From Escherichia coli (GTDB lineage: Bacteria; Pseudomonadota; Gammaproteobacteria; Enterobacterales; Enterobacteriaceae): a stretch of DNA of 64,000 nucleotides. The position numbers were made by a program, and so were the translations under genes. Below are positions 11,112-19,018 of this stretch, one piece after another. The DNA lies in NCBI RefSeq assembly GCF_003334405.1, contig NZ_QOWM01000011.1; one strand, 5' to 3'. The notes under the pieces are model-generated. The model had not been told where the DNA came from, ran no database searches, and saw only the letters and a list, made by a program, of their open reading frames with translations. Position 1 is the first letter of the stretch. Every line of letters starts with the position of its first letter.

Positions 11112-12095
11112 CTACAGTAAATCTTCAGTCTCACGAATTTCCTGACTGACATCTCTGGTTCCGGATGACTGAACTTTACGATACAGGTCGAGAGCCTGTC
11201 GGAGATCGACAGGTCTTCCTTCTCCGTAGTGATACATAATGGCCAGGTTATACCAGGCAGTGGCGTCATTGCATTCAGCGGCTTTCGTAAACCATTCAAA
11301 GGCAGCCTGATAATCTTTCTCAACGCCTTGTCCGTGTTTATACATATAACCGATGTTGACGTAAGCGCCGACGCTCCCCTGAGCGGCAGCCTTCAGATAC
11401 CAGTACATCGCTTGCTTATAGTCCTGGTCCACCCCTTCGCCAGCGTTATAATCCCATGCAATTTGAAACTGGGCGTGCCGATTACCCTGCTGTGCGCTTT
11501 TCAAATACCAGAATGCGGCGAGTGTCTTGTTTTGAGCAACGCCTTTTCCGTCTTCATAAAGATCGGCCAGATTGTTTTGCGCGTCACTATGGCCTTGTAA
11601 TGCAGCTTGTTTGTACCAGAAAAATGCCAGCGCATAGTCTTTTGCGACTCCGTTGCCATTTCTGTACATCCACCCAAGATTATTTTGCGCATAAGACATT
11701 CCGCTCTCCGCGGCTATCTGATACCAGACAACCGCTTCTTTATAATTGGGGGCTTCTCCACGATCCAGTGTCCAGCCAAGGGCGTTGGAAGCGAAAGTAT
11801 GGCCTTGTAGGGCAGCTTTTTTCAGCCAGAAGATGGCTTGCTCATTATCTTTATGACGGCTTTTATCCTCGGTATACTTTTGCCCTAAGGAATACTGTGC
11901 TTCACAATGACCTTGCTCAGCGGCCAGCTTCAGCCAGTAAAAGGCTTTTTCGTCGTCCGGAGAATCAATTGCGCTATCGCGATTATAATAAAACCCAACA
12001 ATATATTGAGCCTCGCAATCGCCTTTTTCAGCACGTTCGATAATCTCATCTATTGATAAATTATCGCAGCAACTTGACGTGAAAATCATTATCAT
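11112..12095 (-). CDS. ybeQ: Sel1-like repeat (SLR/TPR-like) protein YbeQ, no signal peptide
   Basis: ORF track 327 aa; repeated A..W...AA.QG...AQ..LG..Y..G.GV motifs; true start may be 2 codons downstream. Confidence 0.88.
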   Translation of the reverse strand: MIMIFTSSCCDNLSIDEIIERAEKGDCEAQYIVGFYYNRDSAIDSPDDEKAFYWLKLAAEQGHCEAQYSLGQKYTEDKSRHKDNEQAIFWLKKAALQGHTFASNALGWTLDRGEAPNYKEAVVWYQIAAESGMSYAQNNLGWMYRNGNGVAKDYALAFFWYKQAALQGHSDAQNNLADLYEDGKGVAQNKTLAAFWYLKSAQQGNRHAQFQIAWDYNAGEGVDQDYKQAMYWYLKAAAQGSVGAYVNIGYMYKHGQGVEKDYQAAFEWFTKAAECNDATAWYNLAIMYHYGEGRPVDLRQALDLYRKVQSSGTRDVSQEIRETEDLL

Positions 12096-12252
12096 TTCCT
12101 TATGGTTGCAGATAAAACATATTATATTTTTATGTGTTCCATTTTTGCGTAAGCCTTATTTTATGCGTATTATGTCGCGTCAGAAAAGTATAAATAAACG
12201 AGCCTCGCAATGCGGCTAATATTCATTTAATGAATATTTAAGGATAAATTAT

Positions 12253-12960
12253 ATGGACATGGAGTCGCAAAAAATATTGTTTGCACTTTCCACTCCGATG
12301 GAAATACGCAATGAATGCTGTTTACCTTCGCATTCATCACCCAAAATGTATTTAGGTACATGCTTTTTTGACCTTTCTTCCTCATGGGGAATTGATGACC
12401 GTGATGACCTGCTGCGCACAATTCACCGAATGATCGATAACGGTCATGCCGCTCGGTTGGCAGGGTTTTATCACCGCTGGTTTCGTTATTCGCCATGTGA
12501 ATGGCGTGACTATCTTGCTGAACTAAATGAGCAAGGTCAGGCTTATGCGCAATTTGTCGCCAGCACCGCCGAATGCTGTGGCGAAGGGGGAATCAAAGCC
12601 TGGGATTATGTCCGGATGGGTTTTTTAAGCCGAATGGGCGTACTTAATAACTGGTTGAGCGAAGAAGAAAGTCTATGGATCCAGTCGCGCATTCATCTAC
12701 GGGCTCTACGTTATTATAGTAACTGGCGGCAATACTTTGCCGGTTATACCTTTGGTCGGCAATATTGGCAGTCTCCCGAAGATGATCATCTGCCTTTATT
12801 ACGCGAATTCTTAGCGCGTAAAGAATACGACGATTCCGGCAATGATATGTTTTATCAATTATTTGCCAGTGATGATGCGTATTACCCTACCTTGTCCTGG
12901 CAACCATTGGCTTACTATTCTGCATGCCCGGAAACGCTTAAGGATATGAGCGACCTATGA
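12253..12960 (+). CDS. ybeR: DUF1266-family protein YbeR
   Basis: ORF track 235 aa; clear paralog of the ORF at 15050..15757; stop overlaps djlB start (ATGA). Confidence 0.9.
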
Positions 12961-14384
12961 AAAATTGCTGGAAGATCCTCGATATAGAGGAAACGACTGA
13001 CGTCGATATTATCCGCCGCGCTTATCTGGCGCTGTTACCGTCCTTTCATCCAGAAACCGATCCGCAGGGTTTTAAACAACTTCGTCAGGCGTATGAGGAG
13101 GCGCTACGGATTGCGCAGTCGCCTGCTAAATCTGTTTGGCAACCAGAAGAATATGAGGTAGCAGAACATGAAATTCTGCTCGCCTTTCGTGCGTTACTTG
13201 CCTCTGATAGTGAACGTTTTCTGCCCTCCGCCTGGCAGCGATTCATTCAGCAATTAAATTATTGCTCGATGGAGGAGATTGATGAATTACGCTGGTCGCT
13301 GTGCACAATCGCCATGAACACTGCCCATTTATCCTTCGAGTGCGTGGTGTTATTAGCAGAAAGATTGCGGTGGTTACAGGAGGAAAATACCGGGGAAATA
13401 GACGAAGAAGAACTGGAATCCTTTTTATATGCCATTGCGAAGGGGAATGTTTTTAACTTCCAGACCATTCTGCATCTGCCCGTTGCCGTGCAAAATGACA
13501 CCATCGATTTTTACCAAATGTTCGCTCGGATTTGGTCATCGCATCCACAATGGCTGACATTGTATTTAGCGCAACATCGCGCAGTGATTATCCCCGATGA
13601 TGCAAAACTGCACAGAAATTTACTCCGCTGGTATAGCGCAGGTCGCCTGGATATCCCCGAACTTCTGGATTACGCCCAGTCATGGCGGGAAACTGAACCT
13701 GATAATGAAGATGCGCCTTATTATGAATACGCGCAACGCGTCTATTGTGGAGAAGGCGAAAGCCTGTTGGCAGAACTTTGTGACTACTGGCGCGAGTATC
13801 CCTCCACCCAGGCGGATGCTTTAATGTTGCAATGGTGCCGTCAGCATCGGGTCGATTATTACCCATTACTGGTGATGATGATTGAAGCGCGTGATCTGGT
13901 TAACGATCAGGGAAAACCGCTACTTTATGTCCCCGGCGACAGCGCCCGTACGCGTTTTCATTTATACGAAATACTCAGCGATGAAAAACTCTCTGCGCTG
14001 GGGCGTTCACTGGTCGAGATGGTTTTGCACAAAGGACGTAAGCCGCGGATCTCACTCACGCGTGATACAGAACATACCTTATGGCCATTATATCTAGTTG
14101 CCAAACAATTAGTGCAGGCCTGCCAACCTACAGAAGAATCATTAATGCCGATTGTGAGCCGCCTTGATGCAGAAAATCGTTGTCCACTGGAAGCATTAAT
14201 TATTCGTCGATTATTAATTCAGGCGGCGAATTTTACCGAGAAGCAAACTGTTGAACCGGAGCCGCAACCGCAGCCAATGCCCGTTGACGATGGTGGGCCA
14301 GGCTGTCTGGGCATCATTAAAATTATTTTCTATATTTTTATCTTTGCTGGTTTGATAGGGAAAATACTCCATCTGTTCGGGTGA
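12957..14384 (+). CDS. djlB: J-domain-like co-chaperone DjlB (YbeS) with C-terminal hydrophobic anchor
   Basis: ORF track 475 aa; N-terminal J-like region ...[21 protein letters not shown]...; C-terminal hydrophobic tail [23 protein letters not shown]. Confidence 0.88.
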
Positions 14385-14393
14385 CAGTCGACG

Positions 14394-14948
14394 TTAATGT
14401 GCGGGAAGCCCGGCAAGTAATCTTTCCGCATTTTTGTAATGTTGTTTGGCGGCCAGTTTTAACCATTTTTGAGATTCATAATGGTTAACATTAATACCTG
14501 AGCCATTTCTGTAGATCAAACCTAAAGTATATTGAGCATGAGCATACCCTTGTTCAGCTGCTTCCTTATACCAGAGAATTGCTTTACGGGTGTCGGGTTT
14601 GACCCCCAGACCTTTGAGGTAGATCCACCCCAGTTTACTTTGCGCGCGTGGATTTTCCTGTTCCGCTGATTGCTCATACCAGTATCTCGCCTGTGTATAA
14701 TCCAGTGGTTTACCGTCGCTACCATGAAGATAAAATTCTCCAAGGCGATATTGCGACGTTGAGTGACCATGAATCGCGGAAAGCTCCGTGGCTGCCGTGG
14801 TGAATGGAAGACTGCCCGGTGAGCTTAAATAATCAAAGGCATAATTCACCATGGCTTTATCACGCAACGTCGTTTTCTTGGGTTGGCTAATACAGGTAAT
14901 TGCTGCAACTATAAAAATTGCGAATATATACATTAATTTTTTATTCAT
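14394..14948 (-). CDS. ybeT: Sel1-like repeat protein YbeT with N-terminal signal/possible lipoprotein signal
   Basis: ORF track 184 aa; N-terminus [19 protein letters not shown]...; Sel1-like repeats. Confidence 0.88.
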
Positions 14949-15049
14949 GTGTGAATGCTTCGATTTTCTTTTTATTTTGAAAGCGTCAAGTTTATACTCA
15001 TCAATAATAAAAAAGTAGTCAGTTAATGCACTTAAGGGATTATTAACAA

Positions 15050-15757
15050 ATGAATAAGGAAGAACAATATCTTCTTTTTGCGCTTTCTGCGCCCATGGAA
15101 ATACTTAATCAGGGTTGCAAACCCGCGCATGACTCGCCAAAAATGTATACTGGGATAAAAGAATTCGAGCTCTCATCATCCTGGGGAATAAATAATCGTG
15201 ATGATTTAATTCAGACTATTTATCAGATGACTGATGATGGTCATGCCAATGATTTAGCTGGCTTATATCTGACATGGCATCGCTCTTCCCCTGAAGAGTG
15301 GAAAGCATTAATTGCTGGTGGCTCGGAGAGAGGGTTGATTTATACCCAATTCGTTGCCCAAACCGCTATGTGCTGTGGGGAAGGGGGAATCAAAGCCTGG
15401 GATTATGTTCGAATGGGGTTTCTGTCACGGGTCGGTGTGCTCAACAAGTGGCTGACGGAAGAAGAGAGTTTATGGCTGCAATCGCGCGTCTATGTACGAG
15501 CTCACCATTACTATCACAGCTGGATGCACTATTTTTCCGCCTATTCGTTAGGACGTCTCTACTGGCAATCTTCTCAGTGCGAAGACAACACTTCGCTACG
15601 CGAGGCGCTAACCCTGTACAAATACGATAGCGCCGGGAGTCGTATGTTCGAAGAGCTGGCAGCGGGAAGCGATCGTTTCTATGCCACGCTTCCCTGGCAG
15701 CCATTAACTGTCCAGTCTGAATGCCCGGTAACGCTTAAGGATGTGAGCGACCTATGA
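15050..15757 (+). CDS. ybeU: DUF1266-family protein YbeU (paralog of YbeR)
   Basis: ORF track 235 aa; aligns along its length with YbeR; stop overlaps djlC start. Confidence 0.9.
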
Positions 15758-17205
15758 AAACATGTTGGCAAATCCTCGAAATTGAAAGCACGACGCAAAT
15801 AGACATTATCCGCCAGGCTTATCTTGCTCGCTTACCGTTGTGTCATCCCGAAACCGATCCGCAAGGGTTTAAAGCATTACGCCAGGCCTATGAAGAGGCC
15901 CTGCGACTGGCGGTAAATCCTGTCGAGGAAGCAGATGATGAAGAAAAAGATGCTGCCGCTGAACATGAAATACTACGTGCATTCAGGACATTACTGGATT
16001 CAGAAAGTGATCGTTTTCAGCCTTCCGCCTGGCAGAAATTTATTCAGCAATTAAATACCTGGAACATGGAGGATGTCGATCAATTACGCTGGCCGCTGTG
16101 TGCAATCGCCATAGAAGCGCGATATCTTTCATTAAATTGTGCTTCTTTGCTGGCAGAGCGTTTGAACTGGCATTCATTTAATGACAGCGAAGGAATGGAT
16201 GAGGAAGAAAGGGAGGCTTTTCTTGAGGCCATTCAGGCTGGTGATTGTTTCGATTTCCTTAGCCTTCTGGAATATCCCATTGCGTTGCAGAACCAGACTG
16301 TTGAGTATTACTTCGCGCTGGAACGTTGCTGCCGTTACCATCCTGACTATGTCACTGCGTTTTTGGCGATGGAAGGTCCGTGGTTAATTCCTGATGATGC
16401 AAAGTTACATCGCAAACTGTTGCGCTGGTACAGCTCGGTGCAAACAGGTATGGCGGAACTCATTCCTGTCGCTCAACAGTGGCAAACGGAAGAACCAGAA
16501 AGCGAAGATGCCCGGTATTACTTGTGTGCACAACGTTTGTACTGCGGCGAGGGGGAAAGCCTGCTTGCCGATCTCTGCGCGTACTGGGAAAGTTACCCAT
16601 CTACACAAGCTGATAATTTGTTGTTGCAGTGGAGCAAGCGTCATTGCCCGGATTATTTCGCGTTATTAGTGATGGTTATCGAAGCGCGGAGCATGGTAGA
16701 TGCGCAAGGTCAACCGCTGAAATATGTTCCTGGTGAGAGCGCCCGGACGCGGCTGTTATGGGCGGAGATTTTACATAGCGGAAAATTATCGCCGTTAGGT
16801 CAATCGTTTATTGAGTCGTTATTCTTCAAGCGCAAAGCATGGGCGTGGTGGAAATCGAGAGTCGGTAGCGAGACAGAGCAAGATTCACCGTTCCTGGATT
16901 TGTATCGGGTAGCGGAACAGGTAGTACTTGAAGCGTTTCCGAAACAAGAGATGCTGGCCCGTCTTAATACAAGGCTGGAAGGCGGAGATGCTCATCCATT
17001 AGAGGCCATTGTCACCCGGATGCTTTTGACGAAAGTGAAACTCGAGCCGGAGGATGAAGATGTCGATGAGCCAACACCTGAAAATCATGAAGAAAAAAAT
17101 GATGAGGGTGAAAAACCACAGAGCATTACCAGCATTATCAAAATCAGTTTAACGGTGCTGGTGATAGGTTATGCTCTCGGCAAAATCGCGATGTTGTTTA
17201 GCTGA
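15754..17205 (+). CDS. djlC: J-domain-like co-chaperone DjlC (YbeV) with C-terminal hydrophobic anchor
   Basis: ORF track 483 aa; N-terminus nearly identical in pattern to DjlB ([10 protein letters not shown]); C-terminal hydrophobic segment. Confidence 0.88.
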
Positions 17206-17226
17206 CGATGTGTTTTTTGCGCCGAT

Positions 17227-17257
17227 GCCGGATGCAGCGTTTACGCCGCATCCGGCA
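17227..17257. repeat. REP (repetitive extragenic palindrome) element
   Basis: gccggatgcagcgtttacgccgcatccggca imperfect palindrome between convergent djlC and hscC. Confidence 0.7.
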
Positions 17258-17264
17258 GCCGTGT

Positions 17265-18935
17265 TTATGGGATCTCAATGGCTAAATAATCGCTCGCCCG
17301 CCGCCGAACTTCATCCACGCGGGCCATATCGTTTGACTGCAACGCCGCATCAAAATCGGTGATCACCCGGCCGATCTCTTCTCGCTCGTCACCCAGCGCC
17401 CGCGCCCACAACTCTTCCAGTTTGGCTTTAAAGGTGCGATTGATGAGCATATCGCGCGGATAAATTTTCAATGCGGATAACCGCGTCCGACTCTCTTCAA
17501 TCTGCTGCGCGCTCAATGTTACCGGGCTGTGGTTAATCACTCTGGACTTAACGCTGCCGTCTTCCAGAAGCACGTCAACTTCAAGCAACCCGTTGATATC
17601 ATAACTAAAGCGAATATCAATCGACTGATAAGCCCCGGTTTTCTTCAACGGCACATCGAAGGATTCCACCAGAATGTTGTTTTTAACTTTGTGGTTTTCT
17701 CCCTGATAGACGTTAACCGTAATTGAATCCTGTTCCGGGTGCATGGTTGAATAAGTTTCTACACGCGACACGGGCACAGTGGTGTTTCGTTCAATAATCG
17801 GCGAGAAAATGCCGGAAACGCCCTGGCGGTTAACTTCAACGCCCAACGAGTAAGGGCAAATATCAGTGAGGATTACCTCTTCAATATCTTCACTGCGTAA
17901 GCGGCAGGCGGCCTGGATTGCTGCGCCCAGCGCGACAATGGTGCTCGGATCGTAACTTTGATACGGTAATTTGCCAAACAGACGCACGGCGATTCGCTGC
18001 ACCAGCGGCATTTGTGACGCGCCGCCAACCAGCACCAGACTGTCGATTTGACTCGGCTTCAGACGCGCATCGCGCAACGCCTGTTCAATCGGCACTCGCA
18101 AGCGATTGAGCAGCGGCAACCACAAATCTTCCAGTTCGTTCTCGTAAAATTCGCATTCCCGCGTTTCTTCCTGATACTGCCAGCGAATGTGCAATGGCGA
18201 TTGATTGCTACATTTTGCCGCTTCCACACAGGCGTACAAGGCTGCCAGTTCACTCTCGTTAAGCGTGGTCCTGGCGACATCCGCGCGTTTTAAAACCTCA
18301 TCGACCAGCATATGGGTAAAATCTTCGCCACCAAGAAAGTTGTCGCCAGCGGAGGCGTGAACTTCAATCACCGGCGTGGCGTACTCAAGCACCGTAACGT
18401 CAAACGTGCCGCCACCGAGATCAAACACCAGCGAACGGGTATTTTGTTGGGTATGCAGGCCATACGCCATCGCAGCTGCTGTGGGTTCATTAATTAAGCG
18501 TACCGCATTTAACCCGGCTAACTCCGCTGCTAAACGGGTATGCTTGCGTTGTTCATCGCTGAAATAAGCCGGAACGGAGATCACCACATCTTTAATCGGA
18601 CGTTGCAGAAATTCTTCGGCATCTTCTTTTAATGAGCGTAATACCAAAGAGGACAGTTCTGGCGCGTTAAATGTGTCGCTGCCTAACCGCCAGTTGGTAT
18701 TACTGCCCATTGCACGTTTAAATAACGCTGCCGTTTTATCCGGATGCGAAGTACGCCGTGATACAGCCGGTTTTCCGACTAAAATATGATTATTTTCATC
18801 CATGCTAATTATGGATGGTGTTAAATATTCACCGAACTTATTTGGAATTAATTGCGCGGCACCGTCTTTCCAGACGGCAATTAAACTATTGGTAGTACCG
18901 AGATCGATACCAATGGCGAGTTCTGCATTATCCAT
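17265..18935 (-). CDS. hscC: Hsp70-family chaperone HscC
   Basis: ORF track 556 aa; Hsp70 ATPase signatures (IGIDLGTTNS, DLGGGTFD); length matches HscC. Confidence 0.93.
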   Translation of the reverse strand: MDNAELAIGIDLGTTNSLIAVWKDGAAQLIPNKFGEYLTPSIISMDENNHILVGKPAVSRRTSHPDKTAALFKRAMGSNTNWRLGSDTFNAPELSSLVLRSLKEDAEEFLQRPIKDVVISVPAYFSDEQRKHTRLAAELAGLNAVRLINEPTAAAMAYGLHTQQNTRSLVFDLGGGTFDVTVLEYATPVIEVHASAGDNFLGGEDFTHMLVDEVLKRADVARTTLNESELAALYACVEAAKCSNQSPLHIRWQYQEETRECEFYENELEDLWLPLLNRLRVPIEQALRDARLKPSQIDSLVLVGGASQMPLVQRIAVRLFGKLPYQSYDPSTIVALGAAIQAACRLRSEDIEEVILTDICPYSLGVEVNRQGVSGIFSPIIERNTTVPVSRVETYSTMHPEQDSITVNVYQGENHKVKNNILVESFDVPLKKTGAYQSIDIRFSYDINGLLEVDVLLEDGSVKSRVINHSPVTLSAQQIEESRTRLSALKIYPRDMLINRTFKAKLEELWARALGDEREEIGRVITDFDAALQSNDMARVDEVRRRASDYLAIEIP

Positions 18936-19018
18936 TGCATTTATATCTTGAAAGAAAAAGAGATAAACAGATTAAGACCACCCAGGTAACGCGTGGTGAT
19001 CTTAATCAATGACGTGTG

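What the first reader, a model, noticed from the sequence alone, without database searches (positions are those of the whole stretch)
12957..17205. DjlB and DjlC carry HPE instead of the canonical HPD J-domain tripeptide, plus C-terminal tail anchors
Both J-like N-termini read ...[24 protein letters not shown] (DjlB) and ...[24 protein letters not shown] (DjlC). Canonical J-domains stimulate Hsp70 ATPase through an invariant His-Pro-Asp; here the Asp position is Glu in both paralogs, so the substitution is conserved rather than a random lesion. Both proteins end in a ~20-residue hydrophobic segment ([23 protein letters not shown]; [23 protein letters not shown]), consistent with tail-anchored membrane proteins that would recruit HscC to the membrane.
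Basis: seen in the sequence. Interest (0 to 1): 0.45.

Follow-up and report, generated by a model that had tools for sequence, protein, structure and literature searches.

The report
Known HPE J-domain co-chaperones DjlB and DjlC
These are the E. coli genes djlB and djlC, membrane-anchored helpers of the minor Hsp70 chaperone HscC; both their unusual His-Pro-Glu motif and their C-terminal membrane anchors are real but already published.

Summary
The window carries the E. coli ybeQ-ybeR-djlB-ybeT-ybeU-djlC-hscC locus, 100% identical to sequenced strains. DjlB (12957-14384) and DjlC (15754-17205) both read HPE at residues 31-33, and each ends in its only strongly hydrophobic segment. Profile alignments, Pfam and a confident structure model place the Glu on the Asp of the canonical HPD loop of J-domains. 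The Glu is a family trait, not a lesion: 196 of 209 relatives that keep the downstream x[D/N]PxG[F/Y] motif have HPE, and none has HPD. Eight of eight informative distant relatives lie beside an HscC-type Hsp70.

The HPE of DjlB/DjlC is stated in a 2023 PNAS survey and a 2026 review. DjlC is an experimentally established tail-anchored protein (Peschke 2018). DjlC specifically stimulates HscC ATPase (Kluck 2002, via reviews). Recruitment of HscC to the membrane is the standing hypothesis.

Two side observations look less described:
- A DUF1266 gene is translationally coupled to the J-gene across phyla.
- All nine HscC-type proteins examined carry Asn where DnaK and HscA carry the clamp residue Asp481. 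This may be linked to the Asp-to-Glu change, but that is untested.

Verdict: already known, low interest.

The parts
12957..14384 (+). djlB (ybeS) coding sequence, 475 aa
   Evidence: ORF. RefSeq annotation of the identical DNA as djlB, 'J domain-containing protein'.
12957..13127 (+). DjlB J-domain (aa 1-57; helices I-III)
   Evidence: Pfam DnaJ aa 4-47, E = 0.0017. PDB J-domain alignments.
13047..13055 (+). DjlB His31-Pro32-Glu33 codons (CATCCAGAA), aligned to the canonical HPD
14304..14381 (+). DjlB C-terminal hydrophobic tail (aa 450-475), predicted tail anchor
   Evidence: KD19 = 2.39; simple Hessa sum -0.67 kcal/mol; the only window >= 1.6 in the protein. Conserved in homologues. No direct experiment on DjlB was found.
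15754..17205 (+). djlC (ybeV, Hsc56) coding sequence, 483 aa
   Evidence: ORF. RefSeq 'co-chaperone DjlC'.
15754..15924 (+). DjlC J-domain (aa 1-57)
   Evidence: Pfam DnaJ aa 4-47. AF2 model pLDDT 88 with helices 4-8, 16-26 and 36-54. Foldseek top hits are almost all J-domains.
15844..15852 (+). DjlC His31-Pro32-Glu33 codons (CATCCCGAA)
17125..17202 (+). DjlC C-terminal transmembrane tail anchor (aa 458-483), preceded by a disordered acidic linker (aa 434-456)
   Evidence: AF2 helix 458-482 after a low-confidence linker. KD19 = 1.99. Experimentally a bona fide tail anchor according to PMC6794478 and PMC8215388.
17265..18935 (-). hscC, the cognate specialised Hsp70 (556 aa), convergent with djlC
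   Evidence: It keeps the DnaK R167, Q378, L391 and P419 equivalents but has Asn448 at the D481 position.
12253..12960 (+). ybeR, DUF1266 gene; its stop overlaps the djlB start (ATGA)
15050..15757 (+). ybeU, DUF1266 gene; its stop overlaps the djlC start (ATGA); 59% identical to YbeR
11112..12089 (-). ybeQ, Sel1-repeat protein, divergent from ybeR-djlB
14394..14948 (-). ybeT, Sel1-repeat protein with a hydrophobic N-terminus, divergent from ybeU-djlC

Best explanation
djlB and djlC are paralogous class-C J-domain co-chaperones of the specialised Hsp70 HscC.

Architecture: each has a short three-helix N-terminal J-domain whose helix II-III loop carries His-Pro-Glu in place of His-Pro-Asp. This is followed by an all-helical domain of about 350 residues (Pfam DjlB_C_2nd), a disordered linker (strongly acidic in DjlC), and one C-terminal transmembrane helix. 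That helix tail-anchors the protein in the inner membrane with its bulk in the cytoplasm.

Mechanism:
- Shown in the literature for DjlC: the HPE J-domain is functional. It stimulates the ATPase of HscC but not of DnaK, and DnaJ, CbpA and HscB do not stimulate HscC.
- Inferred: the anchored J-protein concentrates HscC activity at the cytoplasmic face of the inner membrane, probably on membrane-protein clients.

The Glu is an ancestral, selected hallmark of the whole HscC-cognate J-domain clade (signature HPExDPxGF). It is not a lesion specific to E. coli.
For: Identity:
- 100% DNA identity to annotated E. coli djlB/djlC/hscC.

J-domain and HPE = HPD position:
- Sequence and profile evidence.
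- Fold evidence.

Conservation:
- 111 of 111 close homologues have HPE.
- 196 of 209 wider relatives have HPE and none has HPD.

Pairing with HscC:
- Eight of eight informative distant relatives carrying PF27158 lie directly beside a 559-573 aa Hsp70.
- Those Hsp70s are 44-59% identical to E. coli HscC and share its 24-residue deletion.

Tail:
-.

Literature:
- HPE in DjlB/DjlC: PMC10410713; also PMC13254874, which calls it 'the only replacement tolerated'.
- DjlC-specific stimulation of HscC, tail anchoring, the membrane-function hypothesis and the Cd2+ sensitivity of the mutants: PMC8215388.
- DjlC TMD required and sufficient for insertion: PMC6794478.
- The DjlC J-domain cannot replace that of DnaJ: PMC1906734.
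Against: - Single-sequence Pfam matches are weak (E = 0.0017 and 0.036 on the full-length proteins).
- The J-domain model shows no helix IV.
- The papers I could read report no direct biochemical or localisation data for DjlB; its role is inferred from 50% identity to DjlC.
- HscC, DjlB and DjlC were below the proteomic detection limit in exponential growth (PMC8215388), so physiological importance is unclear.
- Both tails contain two Lys residues, and DjlC's simple Hessa sum is +1.4 kcal/mol, which is marginal. This agrees with its described 'less hydrophobic TMD' (PMC6794478).
- Clients of the system are unknown.
Confidence: 0.9

Rival explanations
1. The HPE domains are degenerate 'J-like' (type IV) domains that no longer activate an Hsp70. 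On this view DjlB and DjlC act as membrane scaffolds independently of HscC ATPase stimulation.
For: - HPD substitutions such as HPN or QPD abolish stimulation in every system tested (PMC8215388, PMC13254874).
- Pfam scores are weak.
- Some distant relatives even lack the His (NPE, RPD, KPE).
Against: - DjlC stimulates HscC ATPase (Kluck 2002, as reported in PMC8215388).
- Glu is almost invariant across the family, which indicates selection.
- Gene adjacency with HscC is conserved in 8 of 8 informative loci.
- HscC keeps the DnaK residues that contact H33, P34 and D35 (R167, Q378, L391, P419).
Confidence: 0.04
2. The Asp-to-Glu change is a neutral conservative drift fixed by descent. It has no role in partner specificity, which instead lies in helix II/III surface residues.
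For: - Asp and Glu are chemically similar.
- All HPE sequences here form one clade, so the change could be a single inherited event.
- Three relatives carry Asp (RPD), showing Asp is structurally tolerated at this position.
Against: - No HPD among 209 relatives spanning 25-100% identity and several phyla-level contexts. Reversion by a single nucleotide change (GAA to GAT/GAC) would be easy under neutrality.
- The partner Hsp70 clade shows fixed changes in the same interaction network: D481N and D477S/T in 9 of 9 sequences.
Confidence: 0.3
3. The C-terminal hydrophobic helix of DjlB is not a membrane anchor. It might instead be an oligomerisation or amphipathic peripheral helix, so only DjlC would be tail-anchored.
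For: - No experiment on DjlB was found in the papers read.
- The segment contains two Lys and one His.
Against: - DjlB's tail is more hydrophobic than DjlC's proven TMD (KD19 2.39 against 1.99; Hessa sum -0.67 against +1.41).
- The tail is conserved in DjlB-like homologues.
- A review states that both proteins are tail-anchored (PMC8215388).
Confidence: 0.07

Closest known systems
E. coli DjlC (YbeV, Hsc56) and DjlB (YbeS), the HscC co-chaperones
   Same: Identical. The window DNA is 100% identical to annotated E. coli chromosomes. The HPE motif, the tail anchor and the HscC partnership are all described for these proteins (PMC10410713, PMC13254874, PMC8215388, PMC6794478).
   Different: Nothing differs; this is the same locus.
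DnaJ/CbpA/DjlA J-domains (canonical HPD, partners of DnaK)
   Same: - Helix II-loop-helix III hairpin (TM 0.71, rmsd 2.0 to DnaJ in 5NRO_B).
- Conserved Tyr/Leu core, His-Pro in the loop, and the F-K-x-[IL]-x-x-A-Y-E motif in helix III.
   Different: - Glu instead of Asp.
- The loop and the start of helix III are 7 residues shorter than in DnaJ.
- No helix IV in the model.
- No G/F, zinc-finger or beta-sandwich domains.
- Not interchangeable with the DnaJ J-domain (PMC1906734).
- Acts on HscC, not DnaK (PMC8215388).
DjlA, the membrane-anchored J-protein of DnaK
   Same: An inner-membrane J-domain protein that localises Hsp70 activity to the membrane (my own background knowledge, plus the PMC8215388 listing).
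   Different: DjlA has an N-terminal TMD and a C-terminal HPD J-domain, and it works with DnaK. DjlB and DjlC have the opposite topology (N-terminal J-domain, C-terminal tail anchor), carry HPE, and work with HscC.
HscB-HscA, the other dedicated J/Hsp70 pair of E. coli
   Same: An exclusive, co-evolved and genomically adjacent J-protein/Hsp70 pair (PMC13254874).
   Different: HscB keeps HPD and HscA keeps Asp at DnaK position 481. The pair is soluble and dedicated to Fe-S cluster transfer.

Membership tests
J-domain proteins (Pfam PF00226 DnaJ) | Sequence match to the J-domain profile | tested here: met
   - Pfam DnaJ aa 4-47, E = 0.0017 (DjlB) and 0.036 (DjlC) on the full-length proteins.
- E = 5e-4 on DjlC aa 1-58, and 60 of 60 family N-termini match at E <= 0.001.
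- The family profile hits 47 distinct solved sequences, all of them J-domain-containing proteins; best E = 7e-9.
J-domain proteins (Pfam PF00226 DnaJ) | Helix II / loop / helix III antiparallel hairpin fold | tested here: met
   AF2 model pLDDT 88 with helices 4-8, 16-26 and 36-54. Foldseek top hits are almost all J-domains, with probability 0.97-1.0 and TM 0.65-0.78. E-values are weak because the query is only 58 aa.
J-domain proteins (Pfam PF00226 DnaJ) | Invariant His-Pro-Asp tripeptide in the helix II-III loop | tested here: not met
   The aligned tripeptide is His-Pro-Glu in both proteins. The literature treats HPE as the one tolerated functional variant (PMC13254874). About 1% of J-domains carry it (PMC10410713).
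J-domain proteins (Pfam PF00226 DnaJ) | Stimulates the ATPase of a partner Hsp70 | not testable with these tools
   Reported for DjlC with HscC (Kluck 2002, as summarised in PMC8215388). Not reported for DjlB in the papers read.
J-domain proteins (Pfam PF00226 DnaJ) | Helix IV completing the four-helix J-domain | tested here: inconclusive
   The models show a disordered stretch at aa 58-68 after helix III, and the next helix (72-82) belongs to the following domain. Pfam model positions 52-63 are not matched.
DjlB/DjlC family (Pfam PF27158 DjlB_C_2nd), cognate J-proteins of HscC | Full-length homology including the helical middle domain | tested here: met
   Identical to RefSeq djlB and djlC. 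Nearly all homologues carry precomputed PF27158; the family name comes.
DjlB/DjlC family (Pfam PF27158 DjlB_C_2nd), cognate J-proteins of HscC | Genomic adjacency to an HscC-type (short, ~560 aa) Hsp70 | tested here: met
   hscC lies 60 nt downstream of djlC, convergent. Eight of eight informative distant relatives are adjacent to an HscC orthologue.
Tail-anchored inner-membrane proteins | A single hydrophobic TMD at the extreme C-terminus, with no signal peptide or other TMD | tested here: met
   Only the last ~25 residues exceed KD19 1.6. The best window elsewhere scores 1.53 (DjlB) and 1.36 (DjlC). AF2 gives a helix at 458-482 after a disordered linker.
Tail-anchored inner-membrane proteins | TMD necessary and sufficient for post-translational membrane insertion | not testable with these tools
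   Reported for DjlC (Peschke 2018, via PMC6794478 and PMC8215388). Not reported for DjlB in the papers read.

The most novel reading that the evidence does not exclude
The Asp-to-Glu change may be one half of a re-wired J-domain/Hsp70 interface.

Every HscC-type Hsp70 examined (9 of 9) has Asn at the position of DnaK Asp481. In DnaK that residue is the SBD-beta 'clamp' that contacts R167/I168, and R167 also binds DnaJ Asp35. The same nine sequences have Ser/Thr at Asp477, the partner of DnaJ Lys48. DnaK and HscA, whose partners carry HPD, both keep Asp481.

The longer Glu side chain could be what is needed to engage Arg146 (the R167 equivalent) in an HscC that lacks the competing Asp. This would contribute to the orthogonality of the HscC/DjlBC and DnaK/DnaJ systems.

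In addition, the DUF1266 protein, translationally coupled to the J-gene from Enterobacteria to distant lineages, may be an obligate third component (adaptor or client) of the HscC machine.
Probability: 0.2. Interest if true: 0.45.

Novelty: already known. Interest (0 to 1): 0.12.

Why it matters
The finding itself has little consequence, because it restates published facts about E. coli DjlB and DjlC. The system remains poorly understood: the clients and physiological role of HscC are unknown, and DUF1266 is uncharacterised. The conserved DUF1266 / HPE-J-protein / HscC gene module and the HscC-specific Asn at the DnaK-D481 position give concrete handles for asking two questions. How is an Hsp70/J pair made orthogonal to DnaK/DnaJ? 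What does the third E. coli Hsp70 system actually do at the membrane?

Tried and rejected
- NCBIfam gave no family for DjlB, DjlC or YbeR, and only a sub-threshold hit for YbeU.
- PADLOC gave no defence-system match for any of the seven genes, apart from one sub-threshold, partial PtuA hit to YbeQ. I therefore dropped the idea of an anti-phage module.
- Foldseek of the full-length DjlC model against PDB gave only insignificant TPR/alpha-solenoid-like hits (best E = 0.03, TM about 0.2). The middle domain remains unassigned beyond 'all-helical'.
- The promoter/terminator scan found fewer promoter-like sites than shuffles, and no more terminator-like sites than shuffles.
- Kluck 2002, Peschke 2018 and Barriot 2020 are not held in the library. 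Their content is cited only through papers that quote them.
- One literature search was wasted because 'HscC' matched 'HSCCC' chromatography papers.
- Two context look-ups were uninformative. P0160's contig ends right after the gene. P0266 is related only through the J-domain, has no Hsp70 in the visible 9.7 kb, and has no DNA available.
- I considered that the real HPD equivalent might lie elsewhere. I rejected this because each protein has only one HP[DE] in its J-domain and all alignments agree.
Full report
**What is there**

Window 10-21 kb is the E. coli leuS-ybeL-ybeQ-ybeR-djlB-ybeT-ybeU-djlC-hscC-rihA-gltL region. A 7-kb query (12000-19000) is 100% identical to several complete E. coli chromosomes and matches 4437 of 5426 genomes. 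RefSeq annotates the two ORFs of the finding as djlB ('J domain-containing protein') and djlC ('co-chaperone DjlC'), followed by convergent hscC.

The ORFs are 12957-14384 (475 aa) and 15754-17205 (483 aa). They are 50% identical over their whole length.

**Checking the observation**

All four quoted peptides are present once each at the stated places. HPE is at aa 31-33 of both proteins (nt 13047-13055 and 15844-15852). The hydrophobic tails are the last 23 residues.

A 19-residue Kyte-Doolittle scan finds windows of at least 1.6 only in the last ~30 residues. The maxima are 2.39 for DjlB and 1.99 for DjlC, and the best value elsewhere is 1.53 and 1.36. A simple sum on the Hessa biological scale gives -0.67 and +1.41 kcal/mol, so DjlC is marginal.

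**Is the Glu really at the HPD position?**

Yes, by every test available.

- Pfam DnaJ matches aa 4-47 to model positions 2-51. On the full-length proteins the match is weak (E = 0.0017 and 0.036). On the isolated N-termini of 60 diverse relatives it holds at E <= 0.001 in 60 of 60 cases.
- phmmer of the DjlB N-terminus against PDB aligns '[10 protein letters not shown]..FKqlrqAYE' onto 'kfHPDkNPdG..FKqisqAYE' of dnj-12, DNAJA1 and E. coli DnaJ.
- A profile of the family hits 47 distinct solved sequences, all of them J-domain-containing proteins. The best E-value is 7e-9, and hPE lies on hPD.
- A MAFFT alignment with E. coli DnaJ and HscB agrees. It also shows that the loop and the start of helix III are shorter than in DnaJ.
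- AlphaFold2 models give helix I at 4-8, helix II at about 16-29 and helix III at 36-54, with HPE in the loop between II and III. The full-length model has pLDDT 81 and the J-domain model pLDDT 88.
- Foldseek's top hits for the J-domain model are almost all J-domains (probability 0.97-1.0, TM 0.65-0.78). They include DnaJ bound to DnaK (5NRO_B; TM 0.71, rmsd 2.0).
- No helix IV is modelled.

**Is it a conserved trait?**

Among the 120 closest database clusters (Escherichia, Salmonella, Citrobacter, Enterobacter; identity down to 41%), all 111 with an intact N-terminus read HPE. The full-length ones end in a hydrophobic tail.

An exhaustive HMMER search of 1.84 billion cluster representatives found 1598 relatives. 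The distant ones are 25-37% identical and 800-1200 aa long, with multi-TM or TPR-rich C-terminal halves. They keep the signature HPExDPxGF.

Across all 209 retrieved proteins with the x[D/N]PxG[F/Y] motif, the tripeptide counts are 196 HPE, 8 NPE, 3 RPD, 1 KPE, 1 PPE and no HPD. The Glu is therefore an ancestral hallmark of a J-domain clade.

**Partner**

I looked up the genomic context of ten distant relatives.

- Eight carried PF27158 (DjlB_C_2nd) and had enough flanking DNA. All eight lie directly next to a 559-573 aa Hsp70.
- The seven whose sequences I compared are 44-59% identical to E. coli HscC, against 34-38% to DnaK, and share HscC's 24-residue deletion in the NBD. The eighth (L013, 573 aa) was added afterwards and shows the same HscC-type pattern at the interface positions.
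- One contig was too short to be informative.
- One relative, related only through the J-domain, showed no Hsp70 in the visible stretch.
- Even the NPE variant (P0246) and the RPD variant (P0216) sit next to an HscC.

So HPE-type J-domains and HscC-type Hsp70s form a conserved cognate pair. Current literature already treats them as such: DnaK/DnaJ, HscA/HscB and HscC/DjlC are used as classes in bioRxiv 10.64898/2026.05.06.723283.

**What the literature already says**

- A survey of about 280,000 J-domain proteins reports HPE in about 1% of J-domains and names DjlB and DjlC as examples (PMC10410713).
- Mayer's 2021 review (PMC8215388) summarises the rest:
[quoted passage not shown] - This suggests an HscC function at the membrane.
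  - hscC and djlB djlC mutants are Cd2+-sensitive.
  - All three proteins are below proteomic detection in exponential growth.
- The DjlC J-domain cannot replace that of DnaJ (PMC1906734).

**Mechanism**

Shown in the literature for DjlC: a functional, HscC-specific J-domain and a genuine tail anchor.

Inferred: DjlB behaves likewise, given 50% identity, the same motifs and a more hydrophobic tail. The pair would then recruit and activate HscC at the cytoplasmic face of the inner membrane. Clients are unknown.

According to PMC8215388, DnaJ H33 bonds the backbone of DnaK L391, P34 packs on P419, and D35 hydrogen-bonds R167 and Q378. HscC conserves all four positions (R146, Q341, L356, P388). 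The HPE loop can therefore be expected to dock in the same way.

**Side observations**

1. All nine HscC-type sequences, including the E. coli one, have substitutions at four DnaK interface or clamp positions:
   - Asn at DnaK Asp481, the clamp residue that contacts R167/I168.
   - Ser or Thr at Asp477, the partner of DnaJ K48.
   - Thr at L392.
   - Arg at K414.

   DnaK and HscA, whose partners carry HPD, keep Asp481. This may be coupled to the Asp-to-Glu change. However, it amounts to roughly one phylogenetic event and is untested.
2. The gene set Sel1-repeat (-) / DUF1266 (+) / J-protein (+) is duplicated in tandem in the window.
   - YbeR and YbeU are 59% identical.
   - YbeQ and YbeT are about 36% identical.
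   - In both copies the DUF1266 stop codon overlaps the J-gene start (ATGA), behind a conserved AAGGA.
   - The same DUF1266-J coupling recurs in six of the nine distant loci with readable context.
   - DUF1266 is practically absent from the searchable literature.
3. The region 12000-15500 has 38-49% GC against 51-55% in the upstream flank. A DUF1266 gene is strongly derepressed in an hns mutant of E. coli strain 042 (PMC7582179). I did not verify that it is the same gene.

**Verdict**

Interest is low for the finding as written. The only parts that might be new are the side observations above, which need experiments.

Noticed in passing
window 11112-17205: A three-gene module is duplicated in tandem: Sel1-repeat gene on the minus strand, then a DUF1266 gene and a J-protein gene on the plus strand (ybeQ/ybeR/djlB and ybeT/ybeU/djlC). 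YbeR and YbeU are 59% identical, DjlB and DjlC 50%, and YbeQ and YbeT about 36% over the repeats.
   Followed up: partly
window 12957-12960 and 15754-15757; also L003 8001-8004, L004 6677-6680, L006 2906-2909, L011 6362-6365: The DUF1266 gene stop overlaps the J-gene start by ATGA, behind a conserved AAGGA, which suggests translational coupling. The DUF1266-J pairing recurs in 6 of the 9 distant loci with readable context; in L011 the order is hscC-J-DUF1266, and in L014 (743) the overlap is a single base. DUF1266 has essentially no literature (one paper, and only a gene-table mention). It may be an unrecognised third component of the HscC system.
   Followed up: partly
window 17265-18935 (-), HscC residues N448, S444, T357, R383: All 9 HscC-type Hsp70s examined have Asn at DnaK D481 (the clamp residue contacting R167/I168), Ser/Thr at D477, Thr at L392 and Arg at K414. 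DnaK and HscA keep Asp481. The residues that contact the HPD motif (R167, Q378, L391, P419) are conserved, except that one sequence (L013) has Glu at the Q378 position. This may co-vary with HPE.
   Followed up: partly
L009 2303-5788 (P0246) and L011 5001-6365 (P0216): Some distant DjlB/C-family proteins next to an HscC lack the His of the motif: NPE in 8 cluster representatives, RPD in 3, KPE in 1. This is unexpected, because His33 substitutions abolish J-domain function in the systems tested.
   Followed up: no
L005 8001-11216, L008 5001-7868, L009 2303-5788, L013 665-3682: In other lineages the HPE J-domain plus DjlB_C_2nd domain is fused to long TPR arrays (about 950-1160 aa, no TM). In others it is fused to a multi-TM C-terminal half (about 890 aa, one with DUF805). 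The E. coli locus instead has separate Sel1/TPR-like genes (ybeQ, ybeT) next to the J-genes.
   Followed up: no
window 12000-15500: GC content is low (38-49%) compared with 51-55% in the upstream flank. Together with the literature report that a DUF1266 gene is strongly derepressed in an hns mutant of E. coli strain 042 (PMC7582179), this hints at horizontally acquired, H-NS-silenced DNA. Whether that gene is ybeR or ybeU was not checked.
   Followed up: no
window 14394-14948 (-), YbeT N-terminus: YbeT starts with a hydrophobic stretch ([23 protein letters not shown]) that resembles a signal peptide or membrane anchor. The larger paralogue YbeQ lacks it, so the two Sel1 proteins may sit in different compartments.
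   Followed up: no
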